Made by a program: the position numbers and the translations under genes
Shown: in pieces, positions 2,381 through 47,359 of the stretch
How positions within the stretch are numbered: position 1 is the first letter of the stretch
Layout of the letters: each line of letters opens with the position of its first letter
Source: an uncultured Bacilli bacterium
GTDB taxonomy: Bacteria > Bacillota_I > Bacilli_A > RF39 > UBA660
Assembly (NCBI GenBank): GCA_947586205.1
Contig: CANPXO010000001.1
Coordinates: forward strand, 4,164 to 68,163
DNA length: 64,000 nt
Reading direction: 5' to 3'
Notes under the pieces: model-generated
Database searches by the model: none
Told to the model about the DNA's origin: nothing
What the model saw: only the letters and a program-made list of their open reading frames with translations

Positions 2381-2471
2381 AACTCTCACCTCTTTCTTAA
2401 ACTCTATTATAAAAGAAATCATTTGATTTCTCAAGAAGAAACAAAAAGTTTTTAAAATCACTTTTTCCTAC

Positions 2472-2500
2472 TTGAATTTTTATTTTATTTTTGATATACT
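2472..2500 (+). promoter_or_regulatory. Antisense-RNA promoter of unit A (TTGAAT-17-TATACT with TGn extended -10)
   Basis: -35 TTGAAT at 2472-2477, a 17-nt spacer, and ttGaTATACT at 2495-2500. It converges on the 3' end of small ORF A. The same promoter recurs at 2841-2869 and 3217-3245, and on the minus strand at 14733-14761 and 15107-15135. Confidence 0.55.
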
Positions 2501-2506
2501 GTATAC

Positions 2507-2620
2507 AGATGAAGGAAACTTCATATAATAAAAAAAGGAAGCATTCAGTTTTCCATTACTGAATGCCTACCTATAAAAATGGGTTGACATTTACGTTATG
2601 TAAGTGTCTATTTCTTTATT
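2507..2620 (+). ncRNA. Putative cis-antisense RNA A (type I antitoxin-like), overlapping the 3' UTR and terminator of small ORF A
   Basis: The TSS is inferred ~7 nt after the -10. The RNA ends at hairpin GACAUUUAC..GUAAGUGUC (2585-2607, one G-U wobble) followed by a U-rich run. It is fully complementary to the last codons, stop codon and terminator of the convergent small ORF. Confidence 0.4.
2525..2566 (-). terminator. Intrinsic terminator of small-ORF A mRNA
   Basis: On the minus strand, hairpin GCAUUCAGU..ACUGAAUGC is followed by CUUCCUUUUUUUAUU. Confidence 0.5.
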
Positions 2621-2703
2621 ATGGAAAGAATTAATATAATTTCCAATAAAATAGTGATGACATACCTTAAGACTTGTAAATGATAACTCTGCTTTTTTGT
2701 CAT
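2608..2703 (-). CDS. Small hydrophobic peptide A (31 aa, MTKKQSYHLQVLRYVITILLEIILILSIIKK); putative type I toxin-like membrane peptide
   Basis: Not in the ORF track because it is too short. SD AGAAGAAAGGGG lies upstream. The 5' leader (about 2745-2756) contains CTTTCTTCTCTC, complementary to the SD. It has a polar N-terminus, a single TM helix and a C-terminal KK, like BsrG/TxpA/Fst. Confidence 0.45.
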   Translation of the reverse strand: MTKKQSYHLQVLRYVITILLEIILILSIIKK

Positions 2704-2788
2704 ATCAATCACACCCCTTTCTTCTTTAGATTTTGTTATAGAGAGAAGAAAGTGGTAGACACCCAGTAACTAAATACTTCCTATGAAC

Positions 2789-2817
2789 ATAATAGCATAC
2801 TTTTATAATATTAGCAA
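2789..2817 (-). promoter_or_regulatory. Promoter of small ORF A (TTGCTA-17-TATTAT)
   Basis: Read on the minus strand: TTGCTA atattataaaagtatgc TATTAT. It recurs at 3165-3193 (-), 14413-14441 (+) and 14785-14813 (+) with a TAATAT -10. Confidence 0.5.
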
Positions 2818-2875
2818 GCAAAAATATTATTTTTTGCCACTTGAATTTTTATTTTATTTTTGGTATACTGTATAC

Positions 2876-2992
2876 AGATGAAGGAAACTTCATATAATAA
2901 AAAAGGAAGCATTTCAGTTTGCTATGCTGAATGCCTACCTATGAAAATTGGATAGACATTTACAATTTACTTGTAAGTGTCATTTCTTTATC
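2876..2992 (+). ncRNA. Putative cis-antisense RNA B
   Basis: Promoter TTGAAT (2841-2846), 17-nt spacer, tgGTATACT (2864-2869). Terminator hairpin GACATTTAC..GTAAGTGTC at 2955-2981 followed by a T-rich run. Confidence 0.4.
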
Positions 2993-3081
2993 ATGGAAAG
3001 AATAAATATTACTTGCCATAATATTGTGATAATGTAATCAAATATTTGAAGTACAAATTTCTTGTTTTGACTCATATTCAT
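2980..3081 (-). CDS. Small hydrophobic peptide B (33 aa, MNMSQNKKFVLQIFDYIITILWQVIFILSMIKK); putative type I toxin-like
   Basis: SD AAGGAGAAAGGGG lies upstream and the leader carries CTTTCTCCTCTC (anti-SD). It is a paralog of peptides A, C' and D'. Confidence 0.45.
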   Translation of the reverse strand: MNMSQNKKFVLQIFDYIITILWQVIFILSMIKK

Positions 3082-3251
3082 CACACCCCTTTCTCCTTAA
3101 AAAAATTATTTTATAGAGAGGAGAAAGTGGTAGACACTCAGCAACTAAAATGCTTCCTACAAACATATTAGCATACTTTTATAATATTAGCAAGCAAAAA
3201 TATTATTTTTTGCCACTTGCATTTTTATTTTATTTTTGATATACTGTATAC

Positions 3252-3366
3252 AGATGAAGGAAACTTCATAAAATAAAAAAAAGGAAGTATTCAGTTTTCC
3301 ATTACTGAATGCCTACTTTAGAAAGTTGAAGACATTTACAATTGCTTGTAAGTGTCATTTTTTTGT
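3252..3366 (+). ncRNA. Orphan antisense-RNA unit C (promoter and terminator present, cognate small ORF absent)
   Basis: Promoter TTGCAT (3217-3222), 17-nt spacer, TATACT (3240-3245). Terminator hairpin 3331-3356 followed by T7. The expected small-ORF position is taken by the 3' end of the thioredoxin-like gene, so the unit is degenerate or truncated. Confidence 0.3.
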
Positions 3367-3399
3367 CATAAAGAAAAAGAAAAGCAATATTTACTTTTC

Positions 3400-4116
3400 T
3401 TAACATGCATCCGTACAAACATCTAAACTTATTGAATTTAATAATTCTTTTAAAGTGTTTTTAAGTTTTTCTCGATCACTTTCTGACAATGTTTCATACC
3501 CAGTTTCTTGAGCATCTACTGTTCCCTCATGTATTGCTTTAATCTTCCCACCTTGAACTGCCACGATTGTGGGAGCATAGAGTCTTTTTTCATTGGTCTC
3601 AATACTTTTTCCTTTGGAATCATATAATGTATAATCACTTAAATAATCTTTTAATAAATCTAATATTTTATAATAGTCAGCACTCCCCTCTTTTTGAGTC
3701 ATCACTTTATTATTCTCATCTAAGGCAAGTGTAGAACGAATGTCTTTAATATTTAAATAATAAATCTCCCCAATACTTTCTTCTTTAGCAGCTTCCTCTA
3801 AAATAGGTAGTATCGTTCGGCACCAAGGACAAGTTGGAAAACCAAAATAAATAATTCCTGAACCACTTTCCAAAATTTTTACAATTTCTTCTTCTGTTTT
3901 ATATACAAAAGGATTGTCATCATCAAGTTCTACAATAGGATATTCCTTTTTATTATTTTCATTTACTTGACCGTTCAAAGAACCATATTCTTCCTTTATT
4001 TTTACTGCATCTTTCTCTTCCGTTTCTCTATTTTGAAAAGCAAAGAAGGCGCATACACAAGCAATCACTACAATCACACCTAGTAAACCTACTAACACCC
4101 AGTTTTCTTTCTTCAC
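3400..4116 (-). CDS. Membrane-anchored thioredoxin-fold protein (CPWC active-site-like motif)
   Basis: N-terminal TM helix and an FPTCPWC motif. It starts at GTG (the track shows M). The thioredoxin-like fold is inferred from the motif and length. Confidence 0.55.
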   Translation of the reverse strand: MKKENWVLVGLLGVIVVIACVCAFFAFQNRETEEKDAVKIKEEYGSLNGQVNENNKKEYPIVELDDDNPFVYKTEEEIVKILESGSGIIYFGFPTCPWCRTILPILEEAAKEESIGEIYYLNIKDIRSTLALDENNKVMTQKEGSADYYKILDLLKDYLSDYTLYDSKGKSIETNEKRLYAPTIVAVQGGKIKAIHEGTVDAQETGYETLSESDREKLKNTLKELLNSISLDVCTDAC

Positions 4117-4182
4117 TTTTATTCACTTCTTTCTATTAATATTATAACGAAAAGACATAGAAAAAACAAGATTTCTCTTGTT

Positions 4183-4854
4183 TTAGACAGCATTTTTTAA
4201 TTCTTCGATGTATTTATTTACTTTTGTAGCCCAAGTTGTACTTTCTGCATACTTTGTATTTATTTGTTCTGGTGTTACAAGCCCTTTTTGAATATAATTT
4301 TTAGAAAGGTTTTTGATCATTGCTTCGATTCCAGCATCTAAGCTTTCAAATGTATCATAATACCCACCATTACATCTTCCAGGTCCTTTCATTCCACCAA
4401 CATTGTTACATTTAGTTACTAACGCACTACAATTCCATTTACAACCTGTTTCTAGTAAAGTAATCGATACAGCTAAGTAAGGGTCTACTCCGTATTCCAC
4501 AGAATATTCGGCAAAACTACTTCCATATCCTTCTAGATCACTATGTAAACTTAAATTTAGTTTATTTGTAAGCTCAGTCATCGTCATTCCATCATAAACG
4601 ATAGGTTCTGGTGTGGTAGCTTTCAAACTAATCACTTCAATTTGTTGTTCTATATTTTCAACTTTTTCTTGGCTGTTTAATTCATTTTTTTGATTTTTCA
4701 TTAAAATCGTTTCATATAAGAAATTTCCTGATGTCGTAATTCCACTTTCAAATGTCACGAGTATGACATCTTCTAAACGATTCACTAAAAATTCTAAACA
4801 TCCAATAACGGTTAAAGCTAATGCAATTAACTTTACCGAGGGTAATTTTTTCAT
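4183..4854 (-). CDS. Mannosyl-glycoprotein endo-beta-N-acetylglucosaminidase-family protein (glucosaminidase domain), secreted or membrane-anchored
   Basis: Signal/TM segment at the N-terminus. The C-terminal region resembles the LytD/FlgJ glucosaminidase domain (..YGVDPYLAVSITLLETG..NN..G..). Confidence 0.5.
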   Translation of the reverse strand: MKKLPSVKLIALALTVIGCLEFLVNRLEDVILVTFESGITTSGNFLYETILMKNQKNELNSQEKVENIEQQIEVISLKATTPEPIVYDGMTMTELTNKLNLSLHSDLEGYGSSFAEYSVEYGVDPYLAVSITLLETGCKWNCSALVTKCNNVGGMKGPGRCNGGYYDTFESLDAGIEAMIKNLSKNYIQKGLVTPEQINTKYAESTTWATKVNKYIEELKNAV

Positions 4855-5018
4855 TAATAATCCATCCTTCTTTTTTTCCGGAAAGCATCACTATCATACC
4901 ATAGTCTATGTGTCTTTGTCAAATATTTTCTTTCAAAAACACGTACATTTGTTTTTAAAATAAGCAAAAAAGCCCGTTAAAATAAGGGATTATATGTACA
5001 TCATATTTTTTATATATT

Positions 5019-5540
5019 TTATCCAAAAAAGAGGAATGTGATAAGAAAAGCAGCTAAAATTCCCATAAAATCGGCAAATAATCCTGCTTGTAAAGCATGT
5101 TTGGTTTTGGTAACCCGAATGGAGCCAAAATAGAGAGCTAAAACATAAATCGTTGTATCTGTACATCCTTGTAAATTAGATGCCAGTCTTCCTACAAAAG
5201 AATCAGGTCCATACATTTGAAAAATATTCGTCATAATGGCTAATGAGGCTGTTCCAGAAATTGGTCTTACAAAAGCCATTGGTAAAATACTAAGAGGAAT
5301 TCCAAAACGACTTAATGCAGGTGTTAAAAAGGAAAAAACAAATTCTAGAAACTTACTATTTAAAAAGATATTCGTAACAAAAACCATGGCAATTACAGCA
5401 GGTGCAATTTTAAAAGTGGTAATCAGTCCTTCTTTTGCTCCGACTAAAAAAGATTCATAAATGTTTACTTTCTTTCTAAAAGCATATAGTACAATTCCTA
5501 GAACAAACACAGGAACAATGTAATTAGAGAGTTGAAACAC
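5019..5540 (-). CDS. spmB: Spore maturation protein B
   Basis: A polytopic membrane protein of the nucleoside-recognition/Gate family. It directly follows spmA and dacB, in the same order as the B. subtilis dacB-spmA-spmB operon. Confidence 0.7.
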   Translation of the reverse strand: MFQLSNYIVPVFVLGIVLYAFRKKVNIYESFLVGAKEGLITTFKIAPAVIAMVFVTNIFLNSKFLEFVFSFLTPALSRFGIPLSILPMAFVRPISGTASLAIMTNIFQMYGPDSFVGRLASNLQGCTDTTIYVLALYFGSIRVTKTKHALQAGLFADFMGILAAFLITFLFFG

Positions 5541-6126
5541 GTTTTTTCCTCCTCTTTATATAATCAAAAATAAGCCCTGCAATGTTTGATGAGAAAGTAG
5601 CCAGAATACTTGTTAAAATAATTTCCGAAGGATTTGCACTTCCATACATCATTCGAAGAGCAATCACGGTCGTTGGTACAATGGTGACTCCTCCTGTATT
5701 TAATACTAAAAAAGTTACCATAGCTTCTGTTGCTGTATCTTTATGAGGATTATCTTCTTGTAAGCATTCCATCGCTTTTAAGCCAAACGGAGTCGCGGCA
5801 CTTCCAAGACCTAAGGCATTCGCAGCTATATTAGAAGCAATATATCCTAAAGCAGGATGATTCTTTGGTAAACTTGGAAATAACTTACTTAATAAAGGAC
5901 ACACTAATTTGGAAAACTTTTCTAAGATTTTGGAGTCTTCGGCAATTTTCATGACTCCTGTCCATAAAACAAGTAAGGGGATCATATCCAAAAGCAGTTT
6001 GATTCCATCCGTTCCCCCTTTTAAAATTTGATTATTTAAACTTTCAATATTTCCTGTAAAAATCGTAAATAAAGACCCTACGACGAGGAAAAAGACCCAA
6101 ATATATGTTACCATCGAAACAACCAC
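5524..6126 (-). CDS. spmA: Spore maturation protein A
   Basis: Typical SpmA sequence (..GTDGIKLLLDMIPLLVLWTGVMKIAE..). It overlaps the dacB stop and the spmB start. Confidence 0.7.
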   Translation of the reverse strand: MVVSMVTYIWVFFLVVGSLFTIFTGNIESLNNQILKGGTDGIKLLLDMIPLLVLWTGVMKIAEDSKILEKFSKLVCPLLSKLFPSLPKNHPALGYIASNIAANALGLGSAATPFGLKAMECLQEDNPHKDTATEAMVTFLVLNTGGVTIVPTTVIALRMMYGSANPSEIILTSILATFSSNIAGLIFDYIKRRKKRVSTL

Positions 6127-7184
6127 CTTAGAAATCTTTGAAAGAAGTTTTCTTTTTTCTCTTCTTTTGCCTCTTCTCTTTGATAAATTTTCACACTTCC
6201 AAGCAAAGAATCTTTTAAATACACTTCGGCTACCCCAACTTCTGTACTTTTTTCATCCGGATTTACTTTATAATCAATACGAATATTATCTTTCTCGTCA
6301 CTCTTAAGCAAGGCATAAAAGCTCTCTTCTAAATAATACTGCTCAGGATGATTTACATCTATCACTACACTCTCTTTATCCAGTAATAAAACTCTTTCAT
6401 AAGTTTCAAAAACACTTTCACATAAGTCTTTATGGTCCTCAAAATCATTTCCATCATTTAAAGTCACAACAATGCAAGTTTTATCATCTTTCTTAGAAGC
6501 TGTCACTAAAGTTCTTCGAGCTTTTTCAGTAAATCCTGTTTTTCCGCCAATGTTATATTCATAAGTTCGTAAAAGTTTATTTTTGTTTTGCCACACATAA
6601 GTCTTCCCTGTTGTCCGAGCCGTATAACTTTTGGTTTTGATAATTTCTCTAAATGTTTCACTATTTAAAGCATAACGCATGAGTTTTGCCATATCGATAG
6701 CAGTTGAAGTATTTCCACTTCCATCTTGTTCTTCGAGTCCATGTGGATTTAAAAATTTCGTATGACTCATTCCCAGTTCATAGGCTTTCTCATTCATAAG
6801 TCTTACAAACTCTTCTAGACTTCCTGAAACATGAAAAGCAATTTCAATCGCCGCATCATTTCCACTTCGAAGCATAAGTCCATAAAGTAAATCTCTTAAC
6901 GTCATTTCTTCATCAATACTAATATAAATCGCACTTCCATAGGCTTTTAAAACTTCTTCTCCCACTTTTCTTACACTATCTAAATCTTTGTTTTCTAAAG
7001 CTATAATCGCAGTCATAATTTTGGTTGTACTAGCAATTAATTTTTCTTTTTCTCCATTATGACTCATTAAAATACGTCCTGAATCATAGTCCATCACGGC
7101 ATAACTTTTCGCAGAAATGGCCGAGACTTTGAAAGGAAGAAGAAACAATAGAAAAAAAAGGCATACTTTTTTCATGAAAACCAC
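6108..7184 (-). CDS. dacB: D-alanyl-D-alanine carboxypeptidase (sporulation-type PBP5*)
   Basis: Signal peptide, SxxK motif (ASTTKIMTA), SGN motif (RSGNDAA) and KTG-like motif (GKTG). The operon context with spmAB supports the call. Confidence 0.8.
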   Translation of the reverse strand: MVFMKKVCLFFLLFLLPFKVSAISAKSYAVMDYDSGRILMSHNGEKEKLIASTTKIMTAIIALENKDLDSVRKVGEEVLKAYGSAIYISIDEEMTLRDLLYGLMLRSGNDAAIEIAFHVSGSLEEFVRLMNEKAYELGMSHTKFLNPHGLEEQDGSGNTSTAIDMAKLMRYALNSETFREIIKTKSYTARTTGKTYVWQNKNKLLRTYEYNIGGKTGFTEKARRTLVTASKKDDKTCIVVTLNDGNDFEDHKDLCESVFETYERVLLLDKESVVIDVNHPEQYYLEESFYALLKSDEKDNIRIDYKVNPDEKSTEVGVAEVYLKDSLLGSVKIYQREEAKEEKKENFFQRFLRWLFRW

Positions 7185-7228
7185 CTAGTGAAATATATGA
7201 AAAAAGAAACCAATCTATGAGTTTTCTT

Positions 7229-7756
7229 TTATTTTATCGTTCCTTTCATTACTTTTTTGGTATCACTAATGACAATAAAAGCATCGGGGTCATTTTGCTG
7301 AATTAAACTTTCTAATTTTTTTAAATTTTTCGTACTCACTTCAATGAATATCATGAGTTTTGGAACACTGTTAAAACCACTTTCTAAATGAAGAATGTTA
7401 ATGGGGTATCCTCGCATTTTTAAAGAATTAATAAGATCTTTTTTCTCTTCATCAATGATGATTTGAACTCCTACTTCTCCCTTAATAAAATGTTTCGATA
7501 ATAAACTTCCAATCAAAGTTCCCGTTGCAAAACCTAAAGAATAAGAAATCGGAATCCACACACTTTGAATCGGAATCGTAAGAGCTTCTCTAGCAACCAA
7601 AAACCAAATCATAATCTCGGCAAAAGCCAAAATTGCACCTAATACGCATCTTCCCTTTAATAAAATATTTTGTCTAAACGTCGCGATTGTGACATCTAAA
7701 ATACGGGCAAAAAAAATCTTAATACAAACAAATAGTAGTTCCATAAAATCCCTCAC
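7229..7756 (-). CDS. UPF0316/DUF2179-family membrane protein
   Basis: Three N-terminal TM segments plus a C-terminal DUF2179-like domain. The size (~175 aa) is typical of the family. Confidence 0.45.
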   Translation of the reverse strand: MRDFMELLFVCIKIFFARILDVTIATFRQNILLKGRCVLGAILAFAEIMIWFLVAREALTIPIQSVWIPISYSLGFATGTLIGSLLSKHFIKGEVGVQIIIDEEKKDLINSLKMRGYPINILHLESGFNSVPKLMIFIEVSTKNLKKLESLIQQNDPDAFIVISDTKKVMKGTIK

Positions 7757-7808
7757 TCATAGTTTGGAACGTTTCCTTCTTTCTATACAAAAAGGCAAGA
7801 AAAAAGTC

Positions 7809-8087
7809 TTAGAAATTTCCTAAGACAATCACAAAAACAACAATGGCAATGATGATAAGAAGTCCAAAGAGAATAATCCATAGATAGAAATTGGAATCAG
7901 ACCCTTCTCTTTTTTCATAATACACTTTTTTGCCGTTATATTTCTCAGTAATCATTTCTTCATGAAAACGATTTTCTTTTTTCATTTGTTTATAAGTAGC
8001 CATTTGGTCTTGACTAAGCATCGCTCCACAAAAAGGACAAATTCCTCGGTCTGTTCCAATTGCTTTTCCACATCTTTTACAATTCAT
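7809..8087 (-). CDS. Zinc-ribbon membrane protein (hypothetical)
   Basis: CKRCGK..CPFCG zinc-ribbon and a C-terminal TM helix. The start was adjusted to an internal ATG (MNCKR) that has a GAGG RBS. It overlaps the trmL stop by 11 nt. Confidence 0.4.
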   Translation of the reverse strand: MNCKRCGKAIGTDRGICPFCGAMLSQDQMATYKQMKKENRFHEEMITEKYNGKKVYYEKREGSDSNFYLWIILFGLLIIIAIVVFVIVLGNF

Positions 8088-8607
8088 GATAATCCTCAAT
8101 AAAATGATTTCCTTTATGACCAGTGTCTCCTGGTTCATCTTTTAGTAAATCAATATAGTCCTGTTGTCTTAAGGCTTCATATAAAACAATGGCAACAGAA
8201 TTCGATAAATTTAAAGCTCGAACTTTATCTGTCATGGGAATTCTTGCGCAAGATTCTAAATGTGGTTTTAAAATACTCCTTGGAATACCCGTACTTTCTT
8301 TTCCAAAAATAAGATAAATATTTTCTTCTGTATTGGAATAATCAAACTCAGAATGTGGCTTATGACCATATCTTGTATAAAAATAATAGGTTCCCTGATT
8401 CTTTTTTTCAAATTCTTCCCAGTTTGGATATACTGTATAGTCACAATGCTCAATGTAATTTACTCCACTTCGTTTAATATACTTTTCCTCTAAAGAAAAA
8501 CCAAGAGGTTCAATTAAATGAAGACGAGTATGTGTCGCGACACAAGTACGCATGATATTTCCAGTGTTCCCTGGAATTTCTGGTTCAAATAAAACAACGT
8601 TTAACAT
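8077..8607 (-). CDS. trmL: tRNA (cytidine/uridine-2'-O)-methyltransferase TrmL (SpoU family)
   Basis: N-terminal sequence MLNVVLFEPEIPGNTGNIMRTC.. and a 176-aa SpoU-class SPOUT fold. Confidence 0.75.
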   Translation of the reverse strand: MLNVVLFEPEIPGNTGNIMRTCVATHTRLHLIEPLGFSLEEKYIKRSGVNYIEHCDYTVYPNWEEFEKKNQGTYYFYTRYGHKPHSEFDYSNTEENIYLIFGKESTGIPRSILKPHLESCARIPMTDKVRALNLSNSVAIVLYEALRQQDYIDLLKDEPGDTGHKGNHFIEDYHEL

Positions 8608-8641
8608 ATAACCCTCCTAAAAGAAAAAAAGATTTCTCTTT

Positions 8642-9433
8642 TTATTTTGTAATTTCATAAATATCAAGTAACTTTTGGAAATCTCCTACTTCTAACATTT
8701 TTTCATCTTCACGTAGTGCAACTTCTTCGAGCTTTCCATCTCGGTAATATAGAATAGCTGGAGTGTGTTTTAGTCCTTCTGTAAGTAATAGATTTTGACT
8801 CGCTGTACTAGATGCGTCAGTAACTGATCCACAACTATCATTTAAAGAATATACATAAAAGTCATCAATATGATTTTCACGAATGAGTCTTGCTAAATCT
8901 TTTTCTAAATGAAATTCTTCCTCGCTGAAAGAAGTCACAAGAATAAATGCTTGACTTCCTAAAATCGCATTAGAAATTCCATCACAAGTAAGAGAAGCTG
9001 CATATTCTTTTTCAACTAAATAACTTTTATCTTTCCATTTCTCGCTGTAAGAAGCCCCACTTTCTTCGGCTTTTATAAATGCAACAATTACCCCTACTGC
9101 TAAAACAAGAAAGGATACCACAACCATGATGATTGTTTTCAAATGACTACTTTCGTTCCAAACCGCTTTTGTCTCTTTTTTAGGTTCTTCGTAAGATACT
9201 CCTTTTGTTTCTTTTAATTCTTCAGGAAAACTTGTTTTCTCTTCGATTATTTTTTCTTCAAAGATATCCTTTTCTACTTTCACTGATTGTTTTGGAGTCA
9301 CTGTTTTCTTTGGTGTTGTTTTCTTTGCCATTCTTTTTTTCGTAGTAGTCGTCTTTTTTACTCCCGTTTTATTTGTCGTACTTGTCTTTGTATTCGTTTT
9401 CTTAGTCGTTGTTTTTTTCTTTTTCTCATCCAT
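8642..9433 (-). CDS. Hypothetical membrane protein with a Lys/Thr-rich low-complexity N-terminus
   Basis: K/T-rich 70-aa N-terminus, a single TM helix and a ~130-aa C-terminal domain of unknown family. Confidence 0.35.
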   Translation of the reverse strand: MDEKKKKTTTKKTNTKTSTTNKTGVKKTTTTKKRMAKKTTPKKTVTPKQSVKVEKDIFEEKIIEEKTSFPEELKETKGVSYEEPKKETKAVWNESSHLKTIIMVVVSFLVLAVGVIVAFIKAEESGASYSEKWKDKSYLVEKEYAASLTCDGISNAILGSQAFILVTSFSEEEFHLEKDLARLIRENHIDDFYVYSLNDSCGSVTDASSTASQNLLLTEGLKHTPAILYYRDGKLEEVALREDEKMLEVGDFQKLLDIYEITK

Positions 9434-9514: not shown

Positions 9515-10072
9515 TTAATATCCCTTATTTTTATAATATTTATATAATTCTTTAAAACGATTAAAATGAACAACTTCTCTTTGTCTTAAGAATAGAAGTG
9601 GTGCGAGAACATCTTCATCATCCGTTTCATCAATTAAGTTTTCATAAATCGCTCTTGCTTTTTGTTCAGCAGCCATGTCTTCCGATAAATCCGCTAAAGT
9701 ATCTCCTGTTACAGCAAAGTATGTGACAGTAAAAGGATTTCCAAAAGAGTCAGTTGGATATACCCCACGCCCATGTTCAGTATAAAGACTTTCGAGTCCA
9801 TTTGCTTTTAATTCTTCTACGGTTGCATCTTTCACTAATTGACTCACCATTGTACAAATCATTTCACAATGACCAAGTTCCTCTGTTGCTATATCATTTA
9901 ATAAAGCTTTTCCCTTTTCATCTGGCATCGAAAACTTTTGACTAAAGTAACGAAGAGACGCCGCAAGCTCTCCATTCGAACCCCCAAATTGAGTTAATAA
10001 ATTTTTTGCCATTTTCAAATCTTTTTTCTGAATATTAATTGGATAATTTAAATGTTTGACATACTTAAACAT
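9515..10072 (-). CDS. cotJC: Spore coat protein CotJC (manganese-catalase/ferritin-like)
   Basis: The Mn-catalase-like sequence MFKYVKHLNYP...ELGHCEM... The start was adjusted to an internal ATG with an AGGAGGG RBS. At 186 aa it matches CotJC size. It follows a cotJA/JB-like ORF. Confidence 0.75.
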   Translation of the reverse strand: MFKYVKHLNYPINIQKKDLKMAKNLLTQFGGSNGELAASLRYFSQKFSMPDEKGKALLNDIATEELGHCEMICTMVSQLVKDATVEELKANGLESLYTEHGRGVYPTDSFGNPFTVTYFAVTGDTLADLSEDMAAEQKARAIYENLIDETDDEDVLAPLLFLRQREVVHFNRFKELYKYYKNKGY

Positions 10073-10511
10073 ATTTAGTCCCTCCTGTCTTATCCCATGG
10101 CCAAGGATTTTTAATCCAGTTAAAGGTATTTCCTGTGGTATCTGTAACAATAAGTGGACCATATTTTTCTGTGTAAGACCCTTCTACATCACATTTTTCT
10201 TTCGTATATTTTTTAAATAACATGAAAGCATTTTGGTCTTCTGGATGTAAATCTAAGTATAAATTTAAATCAACAATTGCAAAAGCATAAGCCATTAATT
10301 TTAAAAGCATCGTTTCTCTTTCATTTTCCCCTTTTAATTTGTAGTACGTTAAATTTTTGTAAGGCTTGTATTCATCACGAAATAAATTTCCTCTTAAGAA
10401 TCCTTCTTCTGGTGTTAAAAACTTATCGGTTCTCATTTCTTTTGAAAAGTCGCTTCCTGGAATTTTAAAAAAGCCAATTTCATAATTAAAATCTGTGTTA
10501 TCGAATAACAT
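10065..10511 (-). CDS. cotJB: CotJA-CotJB in-frame fusion (spore coat-associated proteins JA and JB)
   Basis: The N-terminal half carries a CotJA-like motif (TPEEGFLRGNLFRDEYKPY). The C-terminal half is CotJB (AFAIVDLNLYLDLHPEDQ...NPWPW). The start was set at the second ATG, which has a GGAGGG SD 6 nt upstream. The reading frame is continuous between the JA and JB parts. Confidence 0.65.
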   Translation of the reverse strand: MLFDNTDFNYEIGFFKIPGSDFSKEMRTDKFLTPEEGFLRGNLFRDEYKPYKNLTYYKLKGENERETMLLKLMAYAFAIVDLNLYLDLHPEDQNAFMLFKKYTKEKCDVEGSYTEKYGPLIVTDTTGNTFNWIKNPWPWDKTGGTKYV

Positions 10512-10597
10512 ATTTTTCCCTCCCATAGGTATTTTACTTAAATACTCTATTTGTGATTAGGATAAACGTCTAAAAAAAACAGTTTTATTTCACTGTT

Positions 10598-14278: not shown

Positions 14279-14412
14279 AATTCCACGTCCTCATTAAAAA
14301 AATTATAACAAAAAAAAGACAAAAAAAGAAGTTTTATTCTTCAAGTGTTAAAGTGGTTGTCACCTAGCCTAACAATCAATTTTATTTTCAGTAGATAATT
14401 ATCATTTTTTGC

Positions 14413-14441
14413 TTGCTAATATTATAAAAGTGTGCTAATAT
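14413..14441 (+). promoter_or_regulatory. Promoter of small ORF C' (TTGCTA-17-TAATAT, TGn extended -10)
   Basis: TTGCTA 14413-14418, 17-nt spacer, tgcTAATAT 14436-14441. Confidence 0.5.
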
Positions 14442-14524
14442 GTTTGTGGGAAGCATTTTAGTTGCTGAGTGTCTACCACTTTCTCCTCTCTATAAAATCA
14501 ATTTTTTAAGGAGAAAGGGGTGTG

Positions 14525-14626
14525 ATGTATATGACCAAAAGGCAAATTTATCATTTAAAAGTCTTGAAGTGTATAATCACAATTCTGTGGCAAGTAATAT
14601 TTATTCTTGCCATAATAAAAAAATGA
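14525..14626 (+). CDS. Small hydrophobic peptide C' (33 aa, MYMTKRQIYHLKVLKCIITILWQVIFILAIIKK); putative type I toxin-like
   Basis: SD AAGGAGAAAGGGG at 14507-14519. The leader anti-SD CCACTTTCTCCTCTC at 14476-14490 gives an SD-sequestering stem-loop with a 14-nt loop. The sequence is a single TM helix plus a KK tail. Confidence 0.45.
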   Translation: MYMTKRQIYHLKVLKCIITILWQVIFILAIIKK

Positions 14627-14726
14627 CACTTACGTAATTGTAAATGTCTATACTCTTTATAGGTAGGCATTCAGCATAGCTAAACTGAAATGCTTCCTTT
14701 TTTATTTTATGAAGTTTCCTTCATCT
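14615..14726 (-). ncRNA. Putative cis-antisense RNA C'
   Basis: Minus-strand promoter TTGAAT (RC at 14756-14761), 17-nt spacer, TATACT (RC at 14733-14738). Terminator hairpin (RC at 14625-14648) followed by a U7 run. It overlaps the stop codon and terminator of ORF C'. Confidence 0.4.
14667..14710 (+). terminator. Intrinsic terminator of small-ORF C' mRNA
   Basis: Hairpin GCATTCAGCATAGCTAAACTGAAATGC followed by TTCCTTTTTTATTTT. Confidence 0.5.
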
Positions 14727-14895
14727 GTATACAGTATATCAAAAATAAAATAAAAATTCAAGTGGCAAAAAATAATATTTATGCTTGCTAATATTATAAA
14801 TGTATGTTAATATGTTTGTAGGAAGCATTTTAGTTGCTGAGTGTCTACCACTTTCTCCTCTCTATAACCAAAATTTTTAAGGAGAAAGGGGCGTG

Positions 14896-14997
14896 ATGTA
14901 TATGAGTCAAAACAGGAAATTTATACTTCAAATATTTGATTACATTATCACTATTTTATGGCAAGTAATATTTATTCTTTCCATAATGAAAAAATGA
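14896..14997 (+). CDS. Small hydrophobic peptide D' (33 aa, MYMSQNRKFILQIFDYIITILWQVIFILSIMKK); putative type I toxin-like
   Basis: Promoter TTGCTA (14785-14790), 17-nt spacer, TAATAT (14808-14813). Leader anti-SD and SD as in C'. Confidence 0.45.
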   Translation: MYMSQNRKFILQIFDYIITILWQVIFILSIMKK

Positions 14998-15100
14998 CAC
15001 TTACAAGTAAATTGTAAATGTCTCCAATCTTTTTCGGTAGGCATTCAGCATAGCTAAACTGAAATGCTTCCTTTTTTATTTTATGAAGTTTCCTTCATCT
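14986..15100 (-). ncRNA. Putative cis-antisense RNA D'
   Basis: Minus-strand promoter TTGATT (RC at 15130-15135), 17-nt spacer, TATACT (RC at 15107-15112). Terminator hairpin RC at 14996-15023 followed by a U-run. Confidence 0.4.
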
Positions 15101-15153
15101 GTATACAGTATAACAAAAATAAGATAAAAAATCAAGTAGGAAAATATAATATT

Positions 15154-17745
15154 TTATACTCCTAATGCTACTCCTTTTTTCTTTAGTATTATTTTTCTAA
15201 TAAAATCAACAGGAATCACGGTAAATGATAAAATTAACACAAAGAATAATTCAAAAGGTGTGAGTCCAAAGGTTCTAAATACGGTTCCTCCTTTATAAAT
15301 GAGAATCATCTGTACAGAAGCTATAAACAAAATTGTAAGGACAAAAACAATATTTTCACTTAAATGGGCAAATAAATTAAGACGATGGGTTCTTGCATTA
15401 AAAGCATTCCCGATTCCAATAAAAATAAACAAAGCAAAATAAGCCGTCATTAAATATTTAAAATCTTCGCCTGTTCTTACTAAAGTTCGAATCCACGGGT
15501 GTTTCAAGAAAAACAAACATAATAAAGCGGAATAAAGACCTGTGAAAATAATCTCCGAATACATATAACGATTCATAATCGGTTCATTTTTATCTTTAGG
15601 AGGCTCCATCATTGTATCTTTTAAAGCAGGTTCATAAGAAAAAGCAAGTCCTGCAAAGGTATCCATAATCATATTAATCCATAACATTTGAATAATGGTA
15701 ATCGGGGTATTCACTCCTACAAAAGGGCCAATAATGGATAAGAATAAAGCTACAAAGTTACAAGTACACTGATAAATAATAAACTTTCGAATGCTTTTGA
15801 AAATCGTTCTTCCATAAAGAATCGCCTGACTAATCGATAAAATATTATCATCTAATATGACAATGTCACTCGCTTCTTTCGCGACTTCGGTTCCACTTCC
15901 CATGGCAAAACCAACATTGGCTTTTTTAAGAGCTGGAGCATCATTCACACCATCCCCTGTCATTCCGACAATAAGCTCTTTTCTCTCAGCAATTTTAACA
16001 AGTTTACTTTTGTCTTGAGGAAGAGCCCTAGCAATGACTTTAATTCTTGGTAAAAGAGTTTCGAGTTCATACTCGGAATAATGATTTAATTCTTCACTCG
16101 TTAAAACTAAATCCGAAGGGCTTTTGATAATTCCGACTTCTTTTGCAATCGACTCTGCCGTTTCTTTCGCATCTCCTGTAATCATCACGACTTGAATACC
16201 CGCATTTTGAATCAAAGAAACGCCGTCCAAAGACTCTTTCCGTAAATCATCTTTAATGGCAACGATTCCTAGAAATGTTAAGTATTCTAATGTTTCACTT
16301 CTTCCTACTGCTAAAGTAATGACACGACTTCCTTTTTTGGTGAGTCTTTCAATTTCCCTTTCGATTTCTTCATGACTTGTAAATGGTTTTTCTTCCCCAC
16401 TTTCTAACATCATCCGATTACATTTTGGAATAATCTTTTCACTAGCTCCTTTAAAATATGTTTTTTCTACGCCATTTTCTTTCACTGTAACAGAGGAATA
16501 CTTGTATTTACTATCAAAAGGAGTGGAATGAATGATTTCTTTCTCGATATTTTTTGGTTCAAAAAACTGAAGCAAAGCCCGGTCCGTCGAATTCCCACCT
16601 ATCACTTTTCCCTCGCTGTAAAAACTTTGATTGTTCCAAACCATAGCTTTTTCAATACTGAAACCAAGCTCCCTCTTCTTTTGTAAATCACTTTCAGTAT
16701 GAAAATGAAATAATTCCCCACTTACTATATCTACAACTTCTAATTTTCCTTTTGTTAAAGTTCCTGTTTTATCTGTGAATAAAATATTTAGGGAACCCGC
16801 GGTTTCAATTCCCACAAGCTTTCTTACTAAAACATTATTTTTAAGCATTCTTTTCATGTTACTTGATAAGACTAAAGTAATCATCATCGGAAGTCCTTCT
16901 GGAACTGCAACAACAATAATGGTAACAGATAAAGTTAAAGCATAAATAAGATAATCGGCCATGACCCTAAAATTCATTAAAGTATCACAAATACGACTCC
17001 ATTCAAAATTATTATTGATGACAATCACCGAGAAAAGATAAGAAATGGTTACCAAAAATGCTCCAACATAACCAATGCGACTAATCGTTTTAGCAAACCC
17101 ACGAAGTCGAAGTTTTAAAGGACTCACTGGTTCCTTTTCTTGAACTTCTTTCGCTAAAGCTCCATACACCGTTTGGTCCCCTACACTTTGAACTTCTAAA
17201 GTTCCCGTTCCTTCATAAATGACTGAACCTCGAAGAAGCTTATTGTTGGAAGTTCCAGCAATTTTTTTATTTTCTTTTGTTTCTCCATTGAGTCTTGATT
17301 CATCGACACTTAAACTTCCTTCCACCAAAATTCCATCTGCTGGGACGGCATCTCCACTTGATAGAAGAACGATATCTCCAACCACCACTTCATCCATTTT
17401 AACTTCGATGATTTTCCCATCTCTTTTAACTTTAACCAAAATGCTTTCAGATTCTTCTTGTAATTTCTTAAATGCTTGTTCACTTCCATATTCACTGATG
17501 GATGAGATAAAAGATGCAAGAAAAATGGCGATTAAGATGCCTAAAGTTTCAAAATAATCAAAATCTCGAAACAAAAAAACAACTTTAATAGCTAAAGCAA
17601 TGAGTAAGATTTTGATAATCGGATCTCCTAAAGATTCTAATAACAGTTTCCAAAAACTATTTCTTTTTATTTCGGTTAAAGCATTGGTTCCGTACTTCTT
17701 TCTTTGTACTTCTACTTCTTTATTCGTGAGTCCATTGAATTTCAT
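15154..17745 (-). CDS. Calcium-translocating P-type ATPase (PMCA/SERCA-like, P-type IIA/IIB)
   Basis: DKTGTLT, VPEGLP, TGDGVNDAPAL and 10 predicted TM segments, in an 863-aa protein. Confidence 0.8.
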   Translation of the reverse strand: MKFNGLTNKEVEVQRKKYGTNALTEIKRNSFWKLLLESLGDPIIKILLIALAIKVVFLFRDFDYFETLGILIAIFLASFISSISEYGSEQAFKKLQEESESILVKVKRDGKIIEVKMDEVVVGDIVLLSSGDAVPADGILVEGSLSVDESRLNGETKENKKIAGTSNNKLLRGSVIYEGTGTLEVQSVGDQTVYGALAKEVQEKEPVSPLKLRLRGFAKTISRIGYVGAFLVTISYLFSVIVINNNFEWSRICDTLMNFRVMADYLIYALTLSVTIIVVAVPEGLPMMITLVLSSNMKRMLKNNVLVRKLVGIETAGSLNILFTDKTGTLTKGKLEVVDIVSGELFHFHTESDLQKKRELGFSIEKAMVWNNQSFYSEGKVIGGNSTDRALLQFFEPKNIEKEIIHSTPFDSKYKYSSVTVKENGVEKTYFKGASEKIIPKCNRMMLESGEEKPFTSHEEIEREIERLTKKGSRVITLAVGRSETLEYLTFLGIVAIKDDLRKESLDGVSLIQNAGIQVVMITGDAKETAESIAKEVGIIKSPSDLVLTSEELNHYSEYELETLLPRIKVIARALPQDKSKLVKIAERKELIVGMTGDGVNDAPALKKANVGFAMGSGTEVAKEASDIVILDDNILSISQAILYGRTIFKSIRKFIIYQCTCNFVALFLSIIGPFVGVNTPITIIQMLWINMIMDTFAGLAFSYEPALKDTMMEPPKDKNEPIMNRYMYSEIIFTGLYSALLCLFFLKHPWIRTLVRTGEDFKYLMTAYFALFIFIGIGNAFNARTHRLNLFAHLSENIVFVLTILFIASVQMILIYKGGTVFRTFGLTPFELFFVLILSFTVIPVDFIRKIILKKKGVALGV

Positions 17746-43475: not shown

Positions 43476-43802
43476 TTAAGGTTTCCTCCTTTCGCCAACC
43501 ATTAAAGCAGAAAAAAGGAGGCTTTGCAAACGCCAAAAACGGGTAAAACCCTGCAGATTTTGAAAATCTGCTTAGCAAATTTTGAAAATTTGTAGCCATT
43601 TTGACCAAAAATGGGCAAAAATGTCTAATTTGGCCGTTTTTTTTGACAAGTTTTGTCGAATCCTGTCGAATGGTGTCAAAAACCAAGAAAATATTCACAT
43701 TAACGCACAAATTTATATGATTTTGTTGACTTTAAACTTATTTAATAATCAAGACAAAAAACGCCATTTTTGTCTGAATTATCAATTTTGATTTTATAAA
43801 CA

Positions 43803-47331: not shown

Positions 47332-47359
47332 AAATATAAACTTCCTTTCTTTATTATTT

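What the first reader, a model, noticed from the sequence alone, without database searches (positions are those of the whole stretch)
14400..15140. Second, inverted array of the same toxin/antisense units (2 copies) between the two P-type ATPase genes
Units C' (ORF 14525..14626) and D' (ORF 14896..14997) are the reverse-complement orientation of the 2461-3370 array. They are 80-90% identical in promoter, leader, SD, ORF, terminator and antisense gene. The peptides differ mainly in the polar N-terminus (MYMTKRQIYHLKVLKC.. versus MYMSQNRKFILQIFDY..), while the TM/KK part (ITILWQVIFIL(A/S)I(I/M)KK) is conserved. That pattern fits diversifying paralogs of a toxin family. The family therefore has at least 4 expressed-looking copies in 13 kb.
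Basis: seen in the sequence. Interest (0 to 1): 0.7.

Follow-up and report, generated by a model that had tools for sequence, protein, structure and literature searches.

The report
Tandem toxin–antisense RNA gene pairs
Two 372-bp repeats between two ion-pump genes each encode a 31-residue membrane peptide and a convergent ~110-nt antisense RNA; they belong to an unannotated family of type I toxin-antitoxin-like modules that is common in uncultured gut Bacilli and is built like Bacillus subtilis bsrG/SR4.

Summary
Window 14398-14770 and 14763-15144 (+) are two tandem ~372-bp units, 83% identical to each other. They are 78-91% identical to the inverted units at 2463-3215 (-). No further copies occur in the 64 kb.

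Each unit carries:
- a sigma-70 promoter with an extended -10;
- a leader whose Shine-Dalgarno sequence (SD) is sequestered by an anti-SD;
- a 31-codon ORF (conserved start 14531 / 14902) predicted to be a single helix;
- a convergent antisense gene with its own promoter, a 5' GNRA hairpin and a terminator that ends at the toxin stop codon.

The toxin mRNA's first 30 nt pair with its own terminator region. Covariation across 23 relatives supports this helix: 94% of cells paired and 16 of 24 pairs compensatory. B. subtilis bsrG mRNA has a comparable 5'-3' helix (P1).

A 26-nt antisense motif recovers at least 120 metagenomic loci carrying many different small hydrophobic ORFs. None of the peptides tested matches Pfam or NCBIfam; the window units match no Rfam family, plasmid or phage record, and the 26-mer has no viral-contig match.

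The paralogues are under purifying selection (pN/pS below 1), and C' is a recombinant rather than a product of diversification.

Verdict: a new family within a known kind (type I TA with a 3'-overlapping antisense). Toxicity is inferred, not shown.

The parts
14413..14441 (+). Unit C' toxin promoter: TTGCTA (14413-14418), 17-nt spacer, extended -10 TGC-TAATAT (14433-14441)
   Evidence: Read from the sequence. Conserved in all four window units. In 72 of 86 relatives a comparable promoter ends 5-6 nt before the first base of the long-range helix.
14448..14477 (+). Unit C' mRNA 5' end: 30-nt strand of the long-range 5'-3' helix. It pairs with 14662-14676 and 14684-14698.
   Evidence: MFE fold -91.1 kcal/mol, z = -10.4. 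Covariation: 93.9% paired, 16 of 24 pairs compensatory, 0 of 500 shuffles reach this.
14479..14517 (+). Unit C' anti-SD (CUUUCUCCU, 14479-14487) paired with AAGGAGAAAG (14509-14517). This hairpin sequesters the ribosome-binding region.
   Evidence: A C-G to U-A double change occurs in unit A and in L001/L002 units (CTTTCTTCT with AAGAAGAAAG). SD bases are paired in the MFE fold across the family.
14531..14626 (+). Unit C' toxin ORF, 31 aa plus stop: MTKRQIYHLKVLKCIITILWQVIFILAIIKK. In-frame upstream starts are possible at 14525 and 14522.
   Evidence: pN/pS 0.30-0.42 against paralogues; single helix, residues 3-30, pLDDT 89.
14666..14708 (+). Unit C' toxin mRNA terminator: hairpin GGCATTCAG...CTGAAATGCTTCC followed by a T-run
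   Evidence: The equivalent hairpin of unit A is flagged by the terminator scan. The local hairpin is paired in 84% of cells.
14616..14727 (-). Unit C' antisense RNA, about 110 nt. It has a 5' GNRA hairpin (AUGAAG-GAAA-CUUCAU, 14724->14709), a middle hairpin and a terminator hairpin (14648->14625) whose U-run lies over the toxin's KK-stop codons.
   Evidence: Fold z = -4.6. The terminator is flagged. An antisense-strand terminator is found in 83 of 86 relatives, with a median antisense length of 111 nt.
14733..14761 (-). Unit C' antisense promoter: TTGAAT, 17-nt spacer, TG-n-TATACT
   Evidence: Family consensus is cTTGa-17-TGnTAttAT-GTATAyAG-ATGAAGGAAACTTCAT.
14785..14813 (+). Unit D' toxin promoter: TTGCTA (14785-14790), 17-nt spacer, TGT-TAATAT (14805-14813)
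14820..14849 (+). Unit D' mRNA 5' strand of the long-range helix. It pairs with 15036-15050 and 15058-15072.
   Evidence: MFE fold -84.1 kcal/mol, z = -10.4; covariation.
14902..14997 (+). Unit D' toxin ORF, 31 aa plus stop: MSQNRKFILQIFDYIITILWQVIFILSIMKK. In-frame upstream starts are possible at 14896 and 14893.
   Evidence: pN/pS is 0.07 against L001 and 0.28 against unit B.
15040..15082 (+). Unit D' toxin mRNA terminator hairpin plus T-run
14987..15101 (-). Unit D' antisense RNA, about 115 nt, with a 5' GNRA hairpin (15098->15083) and a terminator (15022->14996)
   Evidence: Fold z = -4.2. The terminator is flagged.
15107..15135 (-). Unit D' antisense promoter: TTGATT, 17-nt spacer, TG-n-TATACT. 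It lies about 20 nt downstream of the stop codon of the P-type ATPase gene at 15154-17745.
2463..3374 (-). The first array, for context: unit A (2463-2839), unit B (2832-3215), and an orphan (3208-3374) that keeps the antisense gene and only a remnant of the toxin 3' end.

Best explanation
Each unit is a type I toxin-antitoxin-like module with a 3'-overlapping (convergent) antisense RNA.

The toxin side. A strong promoter makes an mRNA of about 260 nt. It encodes a 31-residue peptide with a basic N-terminus, one membrane-length helix and a KK tail. By analogy with other type I toxins, the peptide is inferred to insert into and damage the membrane.

How the full-length mRNA is kept silent. Its first 30 nt pair with its own terminator region, closing the molecule into a long 5'-3' helix. 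Next to that helix, an anti-SD hairpin and downstream pairing bury the ribosome-binding site and the start codon.

The antisense side. A second promoter on the opposite strand makes an RNA of about 110 nt. It starts with a GNRA-tetraloop hairpin, is perfectly complementary to the toxin 3' UTR including the terminator, and ends at the toxin stop codon. Its inferred action is to form a roughly 90-bp duplex with the toxin 3' region. This would compete with the mRNA's own 5' end and trigger RNase III-type cleavage and decay.

Shown versus inferred. Shown computationally: the anatomy, its conservation, the covariation of the long helix, a coding signature, and a helical peptide. Inferred: that both RNAs are made, that the peptide is toxic, and that the antisense acts through degradation rather than translation.

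The two units here are paralogues that exchange segments by recombination with the inverted array 11 kb away.
For: - Anatomy and repeats.
- Folding: mRNA MFE -91.1 and -84.1 kcal/mol, z about -10.4, with a 30-bp 5'-3' helix and a sequestered SD. The antisense RNAs fold with z = -4.6 and -4.2.
- Covariation of the 5'-3' helix in 23 diverse units: 93.9% of cells paired, 16 of 24 pairs with compensatory changes, 0 of 500 shuffles reach this, slid controls 38-47%.
- Own 5'/3' duplex energy is -34.5 kcal/mol against -21.2 for swapped partners. The helix appears in 83 of 86 full-length MFE folds.
- In 72 of 86 units a promoter ends 5-6 nt before the first base of the helix.
- The antisense promoter and 5' hairpin are conserved. 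An antisense terminator is found in 83 of 86 units, with a median antisense length of 111 nt ending at the stop codon.
- Coding signature: pN/pS 0-0.76, and the A-type peptide is identical in another species. The peptide is predicted as a single helix with pLDDT 89.
- Leader type and terminator type co-segregate among the window units.
- Known parallel: bsrG mRNA nt 1-35 pair with nt 232-262 in helix P1, its SD lies in a stem, and SR4 overlaps the 3' end (PMC3834814). Gram-positive type I families generally place the antisense on the 3' side (PMC8594479).
Against: - There are no expression data. Transcript ends are inferred only from promoter and terminator consensus and from conservation.
- Toxicity is untested.
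- The peptides match no toxin model in Pfam or NCBIfam. The RNAs match no Rfam antitoxin family.
- The 5' strand pairs with both arms of the hairpin that must first form to terminate transcription, so the long helix requires refolding after transcription. The local terminator hairpin is also supported (84% paired).
- The 23 covariation sequences are artificial joins of 5' and 3' ends aligned by MAFFT. Part of the signal could come from relatedness among them.
- The related loci were collected through an exact 26-mer, so conservation of that motif is partly by construction.
Confidence: 0.77

Rival explanations
1. The peptides are not toxins. They are small membrane regulators of the flanking P-type ATPases, in the manner of MgtR, KdpF, sarcolipin or phospholamban, with an antisense RNA that tunes their level.
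For: - The array sits between two P-type ATPase genes.
- Modules lie within 1 kb of P-type ATPase genes, mostly downstream of them, in 4 of 94 dereplicated locus groups, and those modules carry different peptide classes.
- There is a weak, sub-threshold NCBIfam hit of one family peptide to small_MgtR (E = 0.13, 12.3 bits against a cutoff of 35).
Against: - 90 of 94 groups have no ATPase nearby. The commonest recurrent neighbour is RNase J (10 groups).
- The window's other array is next to replication genes.
- In the window the toxin genes are on the opposite strand from both ATPase genes.
- Multi-layer translational silencing (a 30-bp 5'-3' helix plus SD sequestration) and tandem amplification with orphan antisense genes are typical of toxic peptides.
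Confidence: 0.08
2. The units are non-coding repeats (REP/BOX/MITE-like or regulatory RNA repeats), and the ORF is incidental.
For: - They are tandem, multi-copy and intergenic, and many metagenomic contigs end at them.
- They are highly structured RNA.
- Gene callers did not call the ORFs, and the representative protein library holds no real homologue.
Against: - The ORF, its SD and its length are kept in 88 of 145 instances even though the sequences are unrelated at the nucleotide level.
- pN/pS is below 1, and the peptide is identical across species despite synonymous changes.
- The ORF N-terminal halves differ by about 50% at the nucleotide level, yet both stay open and hydrophobic.
- No transposase or terminal inverted repeats of a mobile element were seen, although they were not searched for systematically. 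There is no plasmid or phage record match and no viral-contig match to the 26-mer.
Confidence: 0.05
3. The ORFs encode leaderless bacteriocin-like or signalling peptides, and the antisense RNA is an expression brake.
For: The peptides are small, cationic and hydrophobic, and they occur as tandem paralogues.
Against: - No immunity, transporter or modification genes are consistently adjacent.
- The architecture matches type I TA systems point by point (PMC3834814).
- The basic residues on both sides of a single TM helix, with no secretion signal, resemble known type I toxins (PMC6563280).
Confidence: 0.04

Closest known systems
bsrG/SR4 (and the related bsrE/SR5, bsrH/as-bsrH, txpA/RatA and yonT/SR6) type I TA systems of Bacillus subtilis
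   Same: - Toxin mRNA and antisense RNA are convergent and overlap at their 3' ends.
- The antisense RNA is made of modular stem-loops that end in a terminator.
- The toxin mRNA is closed by a long helix between its 5' ~30-35 nt and its 3' region (bsrG P1: nt 1-35 with 232-262).
- The SD lies in a stem next to that helix.
- The toxin is a small peptide with one TM helix (PMC3834814; PMC8594479).
   Different: - No sequence match of the toxins to any Pfam or NCBIfam model, and none of the RNAs to any Rfam family.
- Here the 5' strand pairs with the terminator hairpin itself, not with a segment upstream of it.
- The antisense is about 110 nt rather than 183 nt.
- The modules are not in prophages. 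They form tandem arrays with orphan antisense genes.
- One invariant antisense 5' hairpin is shared by many toxin classes.
hok/Sok (plasmid R1) and aapA1/IsoA1 (Helicobacter pylori)
   Same: The full-length toxin mRNA is locked by a 5'-3' long-distance interaction and by SD sequestration (PMC8594479; PMC5416894 and PMC9841398 are listed).
   Different: - In those systems the antisense pairs with the 5' / translation-initiation region, and activation comes from 3' processing. Here the antisense pairs with the 3' UTR.
- No complementarity between the antisense and the leader or TIR beyond chance was found here.
- Those hosts are Gram-negative, and the toxins are unrelated.
par (Fst/RNAII) of Enterococcus faecalis and the Fst/Ldr superfamily
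   Same: Convergent toxin mRNA and antisense RNA; a small membrane peptide; chromosomal copies in Firmicutes (PMC7472228, listed).
   Different: - The Fst family has a hydrophobic N-terminus and a charged C-terminal tail, and its RNA interaction uses 5' direct repeats that cover the TIR together with a shared bidirectional terminator.
- Here the polarity of the peptide is reversed (basic N-terminus, KK end).
- Here there are two separate terminators, and no 5' complementarity.
- No peptide tested here matched any toxin model in Pfam or NCBIfam; whether those libraries hold an Fst model was not checked.
Clostridioides difficile type I TA modules (CD2517.1-RCd8, CD0956.2-RCd10 and others)
   Same: They occur in gut Firmicutes. 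They are convergent overlapping pairs with a long complementary region, which suggests a degradation mechanism. The toxins were unannotated and lack homology to earlier families (PMC6563280).
   Different: The C. difficile toxins are 34-59 aa with an N-terminal TM domain and a lysine-rich tail, and they sit next to CRISPR arrays or in prophages. The sequences are unrelated.

Membership tests
Type I toxin-antitoxin module (generic class) | Small (under 60 aa) hydrophobic peptide ORF with one predicted TM helix | tested here: met
   A 31-aa ORF. AlphaFold2 predicts a single helix, residues 3-30, pLDDT 89. The hydrophobic core IITILWQVIFIL is flanked by K/R residues.
Type I toxin-antitoxin module (generic class) | Cis-encoded antisense RNA with its own promoter and terminator, complementary to the toxin mRNA | tested here: met
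   This rests on sequence only. Promoter and terminator are flagged by the scan. Both are conserved in position across the family. No transcript data are available.
Type I toxin-antitoxin module (generic class) | The peptide is toxic when expressed, and the antisense RNA neutralises it | not testable with these tools
   This needs expression experiments.
BsrG/SR4-type (TxpA/BsrG group) of B. subtilis | 3'-overlapping convergent antisense, plus a toxin mRNA closed by a long 5'-3' helix with the SD in an adjacent stem | tested here: met
   compared with PMC3834814.
BsrG/SR4-type (TxpA/BsrG group) of B. subtilis | Sequence homology of the toxin to TxpA/BsrG/BsrE, or of the antisense to SR4/RatA | tested here: not met
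   No Pfam or NCBIfam hit at E up to 10. No relevant Rfam hit at gathering score or at E up to 10. Caveat: I did not verify that every one of these toxins has a model in those libraries.
Fst/RNAII (par) family | Toxin belongs to the Fst/Ldr superfamily | tested here: not met
   No hit to any toxin model in Pfam or NCBIfam; I did not verify that an Fst model is in those libraries. The charge polarity is opposite (basic N-terminus, short KK tail).
Fst/RNAII (par) family | Antisense pairs with the toxin 5' region / TIR through direct repeats, and the two RNAs share a bidirectional terminator | tested here: not met
   Antisense-to-leader duplex energy is -28.4 kcal/mol against a shuffled mean of -26.0 (sd 4.5). 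Antisense 5' end to TIR is -5.4 against -5.7. The two terminator hairpins are separate.
hok/Sok and AapA/IsoA type | Antisense overlaps the toxin 5' / translation-initiation region | tested here: not met
   The antisense gene lies entirely 3' of codon 28 of the ORF.
Non-coding dispersed repeat (REP/BOX/MITE) | Copies are spread genome-wide with no conserved ORF | tested here: not met
   The ORF is conserved with pN/pS below 1. An SD-preceded ORF is kept in at least 88 of 145 instances. Only 5 copies, at 2 sites, occur in the 64 kb.
Small regulators of P-type ATPases (MgtR, KdpF, regulins) | Consistent genetic linkage or co-transcription with a P-type ATPase gene, or homology to a known regulator | tested here: not met
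   An ATPase gene is a neighbour in 4 of 94 dereplicated groups. In the window the toxin genes are on the opposite strand. The MgtR hit is far below cutoff (12.3 against 35 bits).

The most novel reading that the evidence does not exclude
The window units may be the visible tip of a large, entirely unannotated superfamily of type I TA modules in uncultured gut Bacilli.

In this reading, one near-invariant antisense 'head' is combined with many unrelated toxin cassettes. The head consists of the promoter, the start site and a 5' GNRA-tetraloop hairpin (AUGAAG-GAAA-CUUCAU).

The modules are also preferentially parked downstream of RNA-decay genes (RNase J, RNase III, RNase R) and cation pumps. 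The invariant head would then be a functional handle rather than a passive stabiliser. It could be a recognition or protection element against RNase J. It could instead be an operator for a shared regulator, given the CTGTATACAG palindrome at the start site. Either would couple release of all the toxins to the state of the RNA-decay machinery.
Probability: 0.15. Interest if true: 0.7.

Novelty: new member of a known kind. Interest (0 to 1): 0.5.

Why it matters
- Type I TA systems are thought to have a narrow distribution, and they are almost invisible to annotation pipelines.
- Here a 26-nt DNA motif recovers at least 120 metagenomic loci (human, rabbit, mouse and other samples). All come from uncultured Bacilli or from metagenomes. 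They carry roughly ten peptide classes that are absent from Pfam, NCBIfam and Rfam, and the window's own class has no real match in a library of 1.84 billion representative proteins.
- The family gives a natural covariation data set for the 5'-3' 'closed mRNA' design that was determined experimentally for bsrG.
- It also shows that this design extends to a case where the 5' end mimics the antitoxin and competes with it for the terminator region.
- For this window, it explains an 875-bp 'empty' gap between two ATPase genes. It also suggests that the upstream ATPase transcript runs into, and is terminated by, an antitoxin gene.

Tried and rejected
- Rfam: the whole window at gathering score gave 0 hits. 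The array at E up to 10 gave only chance hits such as Plasmodium RUF2 and mir-513.
- Pfam and NCBIfam: 13 peptides from all classes gave nothing near any cutoff.
- PDB sequence search with the peptide profile returned only a chance hit, E = 0.9.
- The representative protein library gave one spurious repetitive 1873-aa protein.
- Plasmid and phage collections searched with blastn gave no match. The viral contigs pattern scan gave 0.
- Literature: no paper contains the motif or the peptide strings. No paper combines type I TA with Erysipelotrichaceae. The supplementary tables of Fozo et al. 2010 are not held.
- Trans pairing of the antisense 5' head with the toxin leader or TIR (the SprA1 and Fst mode) was no better than shuffled sequence.
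- A functional link to P-type ATPases was considered. It was downgraded after the neighbour census.
- The local 5' hairpin as an alternative to the long helix is 89% paired but does not exceed the shuffles.
- Two structure-pair runs failed because my structure string was mistyped.
Full report
**1. The observation**

The sequence at 14400-15140 contains two head-to-tail copies of a unit of about 372 bp, at 14398-14770 and 14763-15144 on the + strand. The repeat finder reports three direct-repeat blocks that are 87-92% identical at a spacing of 371-374 bp. It also reports thirteen inverted-repeat pairs linking this region to 2447-3343, with the main arms 86-96% complementary.

A profile built from the four full units finds exactly five places in the 64-kb window. 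Four are full units (E 1e-110 to 1e-120) and one is a partial unit at 3208-3374. Conserved 26- to 32-mers recur 2-5 times, where dinucleotide shuffles give none. Whole-unit identities are 78-91%.

**2. Anatomy of a unit** (C' coordinates; D' is offset by about +372)

The features below were read.

- Toxin promoter: TTGCTA (14413-18), 17 nt, TGC-TAATAT (to 14441).
- Inferred mRNA start: about 14448.
- Leader, including the anti-SD CUUUCUCCU (14479-87) and AAGGAGAAAGGGG (14509-21).
- ORF ending at 14626.
- A hairpin at 14625-14648. On the - strand this is a scan-flagged intrinsic terminator whose U-run is the complement of the toxin's Lys-Lys-stop codons.
- A second hairpin, GGCAUUCAG...CUGAAAUGCUUCC (14666-97), followed by a U-run. 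This is the toxin terminator.
- On the - strand, a scan-flagged promoter TTGAAT-17-TG-n-TATACT (14761->14733).

That - strand promoter would start an RNA of about 110 nt near 14727. The RNA begins with the hairpin AUGAAG-GAAA-CUUCAU and ends at about 14616. The two RNAs would therefore overlap by about 90 nt, covering the toxin 3' UTR and its last three to four codons.

In unit A the upstream ATG is lost, and only the AAAGGGGTG box 10 nt before the conserved ATG remains.

**3. RNA structure**

The inferred full-length mRNAs fold far better than shuffled sequence: -91.1 and -84.1 kcal/mol, z about -10.4. The dominant feature is a 30-bp helix between nt 2-31 and the terminator region (15 + 15 bp with a 7-nt bulge). 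Immediately inside it sits a 9-bp anti-SD/SD stem. The GGGG box and both candidate start codons are paired with ORF sequence. The antisense RNAs fold into three hairpins, with z of -4.6 and -4.2.

**4. Relatives**

*Genome scan.* An exact 24-mer from the antisense start region hit six stretches, in five MAGs labelled 'uncultured Bacilli bacterium' or, in one case, Muribaculaceae, out of 185,579 species genomes.

- L001 is syntenic with window 1202-9190 at 91% identity, but its array holds a different cassette: MDKRRTFVIKIFKYLLALATLFTICFLAFLYVMMQKGT.
- L002 carries four units plus an orphan at a third genomic site.

It hit no viral contig.

*ORFs in the related loci.* Of 145 motif instances, 88 have an SD-preceded hydrophobic ORF of 18-45 codons (nearly all 21-38) ending 55-130 nt upstream of the motif. 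The window's own units fail the hydrophobic-run filter only because a Gln interrupts the run. Peptide classes include:

- MKIKTFIIKVLKLIAIILLLSTLLVLAIKK (alignable with the window peptides)
- MSKKDFLIS...
- MTKKQSFVVILLLF...
- MTKREFFLYV...
- MEYLVMLAVLIILLNQKPKNKGK
- MLELLVLALIVILYTIIAIKKD

*The same organism elsewhere.* It is seen only in metagenome assemblies, and there gene callers left the gap between the two ATPase genes empty.

**5. Family-wide tests of the model**

- Each unit's 5' region pairs with its own 3' region at -34.5 kcal/mol on average, against -21.2 for partners swapped between units. The own partner beats the median swap in 99% of units.
- On 23 diverse units (5' 42 nt joined to 3' 58 nt), RNAalifold chooses the long-range helix.
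- Pair counting on that alignment gives 93.9% paired cells, 16 of 24 pairs with compensatory double changes (69 cells), 0 of 500 shuffles reaching this, and 38-47% paired when the partner is slid by 1-3 columns.
- The competing local terminator hairpin is also real: 84% paired, 5 of 10 pairs compensatory. A local 5' hairpin does not exceed the shuffles.
- 83 of 86 distinct full-length units show the long helix in their MFE fold. SD bases are 81% paired, with an upstream partner in 77 of 86.
- In 72 of 86 units a sigma-70-type promoter (17-nt spacer in 63, TG extension in 51) ends 5-6 nt before the first base of the helix. This locates the mRNA 5' end independently of the folding.
- The antisense strand shows the consensus cTTGa-17-TGnTAttAT-GTATAyAG-AUGAAGGAAACUUCAU-AnAAUAAAAAAGG.
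- In 83 of 86 units an antisense terminator gives a median antisense length of 111 nt, ending at the toxin stop codon.
- The anti-SD stem shows a clean C-G to U-A exchange between window units C'/D'/B and A.

**6. Coding evidence and the 'diversifying paralogs' claim**

Pairwise Nei-Gojobori pN/pS is 0.07-0.76 for all comparisons that have synonymous differences. The A-type peptide is identical in the rabbit MAG despite a synonymous change. Within-type ratios are 0-0.28.

Segment-by-segment identities show that C' shares its leader (97%), its terminator (97-100%) and the ORF C-terminal half (87-89%) with D' and B. Its ORF N-terminal half matches A (79%) rather than D' or B (47-50%).

So two old, conserved N-terminal types exist, and C' is a recombinant of them. 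This is not positive diversification. Leader type and terminator type co-segregate, as the long helix requires. AlphaFold2 predicts a single helix (residues 3-30, pLDDT 89).

**7. Mechanism**

The best-supported reading is a type I TA-like module of the 3'-overlap kind. The closed, SD-masked mRNA is the stable, silent form. The antisense is perfectly complementary to the region that the mRNA's own 5' end occupies, so it would compete with that 5' end, form a roughly 90-bp duplex and trigger decay.

No extra complementarity between the antisense and the toxin leader or TIR was found. This argues against an Fst- or SprA1-style block at the TIR.

The steps 'both RNAs are made', 'the peptide is toxic' and 'decay is RNase III-dependent' are inferences from known systems.

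**8. Comparison with known systems**

- *bsrG/SR4.* bsrG mRNA of B. subtilis was shown by probing to pair nt 1-35 with nt 232-262 (helix P1). Its SD lies in the adjacent stem-loop, and SR4 overlaps its 3' end (PMC3834814). The present modules have the same design. They differ in three respects: the 5' strand here pairs with the terminator hairpin itself, the antisense is shorter, and there is no sequence homology.
- *T1TAdb.* The T1TAdb paper describes the 3'-side antisense as the general Gram-positive arrangement. It treats 5'-3' long-distance interactions and anti-SD elements as key descriptors (PMC8594479).
- *Fst/par and hok/AapA.* Membership in these families fails on defining features (see Membership tests).
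- *Sequence databases.* The window units have no Rfam, plasmid or phage-record match, and no peptide tested has a Pfam or NCBIfam match.
- *Protein library and literature.* A profile of the four window peptides finds no genuine relative among 1.84 billion representative proteins. No paper holds the sequences.

**9. Genomic context**

The array lies in the 875-bp gap between two P-type ATPase genes, both on the - strand. The toxin genes are on the + strand. The D' antisense promoter begins about 20 nt after the stop codon of the upstream ATPase gene (15154). No terminator-like site precedes the D' antisense terminator, so ATPase read-through would carry antitoxin sequence.

A census of neighbours over 94 dereplicated locus groups finds P-type ATPases in 4 groups. 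It finds RNase J in 10, an ABC transporter in 6, RNase III in 5, RNase R in 5, rplM-rpsI in 4 and a Xer recombinase in 4. The ATPase link is therefore not specific. The RNase enrichment is noted below but not explained. Only conserved genes can be recognised across species in this census, which biases it.

**10. Verdict**

I revised the 'diversification' reading and the start codon.

In kind this is a known sort of system: a type I TA with a 3'-overlapping antisense and a closed mRNA. In sequence it is a new and apparently large family restricted to uncultured gut Bacilli. Novelty: new member of a known kind. Interest: 0.5.

Noticed in passing
window 3208-3374 (-); L001 5827-5986; L002 2620-2777: Each of three arrays starts with an 'orphan'. 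The orphan has a complete antisense gene (promoter, 5' hairpin, both hairpins, terminator) but only about 20 nt of degenerate toxin 3' end, and no toxin promoter or ORF. The orphan's middle hairpin matches the A-type terminator, so it could act in trans on A-type toxin mRNAs.
   Followed up: partly
L002 1147-4449 and nine other dereplicated locus groups (for example L083, L052, L021, L038): The modules recur next to RNA-decay genes. RNase J is a neighbour in 10 of 94 groups, mostly with the module just downstream and the toxin convergent to the gene. RNase III is a neighbour in 5 groups and RNase R in 5. This could be a conserved hot spot or a functional link. Recognising only conserved genes across species biases the census.
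   Followed up: partly
window 14709-14733 and 15083-15107 (also 2500-2525, 2869-2894, 3245-3270): The antisense start region, CTGTATACAG palindrome plus the AUGAAG-GAAA-CUUCAU GNRA hairpin, is identical in all five window copies. It is shared by modules with unrelated toxin ORFs in at least 120 metagenomic loci. I do not know why this segment is more conserved than the toxins. Ascertainment through an exact-match search contributes to the effect.
   Followed up: partly
window 14996-15154 (-): The P-type ATPase gene at 15154-17745 has no terminator-like site of its own. The first one downstream on its strand is the D' antisense terminator (15022->14996). Its 3' UTR would therefore contain the whole D' antitoxin sequence.
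   Followed up: no
window 14531-14578 compared with 2656-2703: Unit C' is a mosaic. The N-terminal half of its ORF is A-type (79% identical to unit A, 47-50% to D' and B). The rest of the unit is B/D-type (87-100%). This indicates recombination between the two inverted arrays 11 kb apart.
   Followed up: yes
L003 5280-5550; L005 4130-4400; L004 3900-4150 and 7700-7950: The same antisense head sits next to other peptide types. These include peptides with a hydrophobic N-terminus and a charged tail (MKIWYFIGALGLDGLSSYLSSIIILTQRRQTKEEVA; ...EYLVMLAVLIILLNQKPKNKGK) and MTLREFFLHVVILLLVVLLYIMYLHQ. The L005 ORF may carry a frameshift or use a TTG start. L005 is labelled a Muribaculaceae MAG, which is probably a mis-binned contig.
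   Followed up: partly
window 43483-43680: A roughly 200-nt intergenic stretch, between the genes at 42666-43475 and 43852-47397, is 82% identical to L002 5716-5915, although the surrounding DNA is not alignable. There is no Rfam match above chance. Its function is unknown.
   Followed up: partly
window 9515-10526: CotJB and Mn-catalase (CotJC-like) spore-coat genes lie just downstream of the first ATPase gene, according to the Pfam calls on identical contigs L127 and L128. The host is therefore probably a spore-forming Firmicute, even though the related MAGs are labelled only 'uncultured Bacilli'.
   Followed up: no
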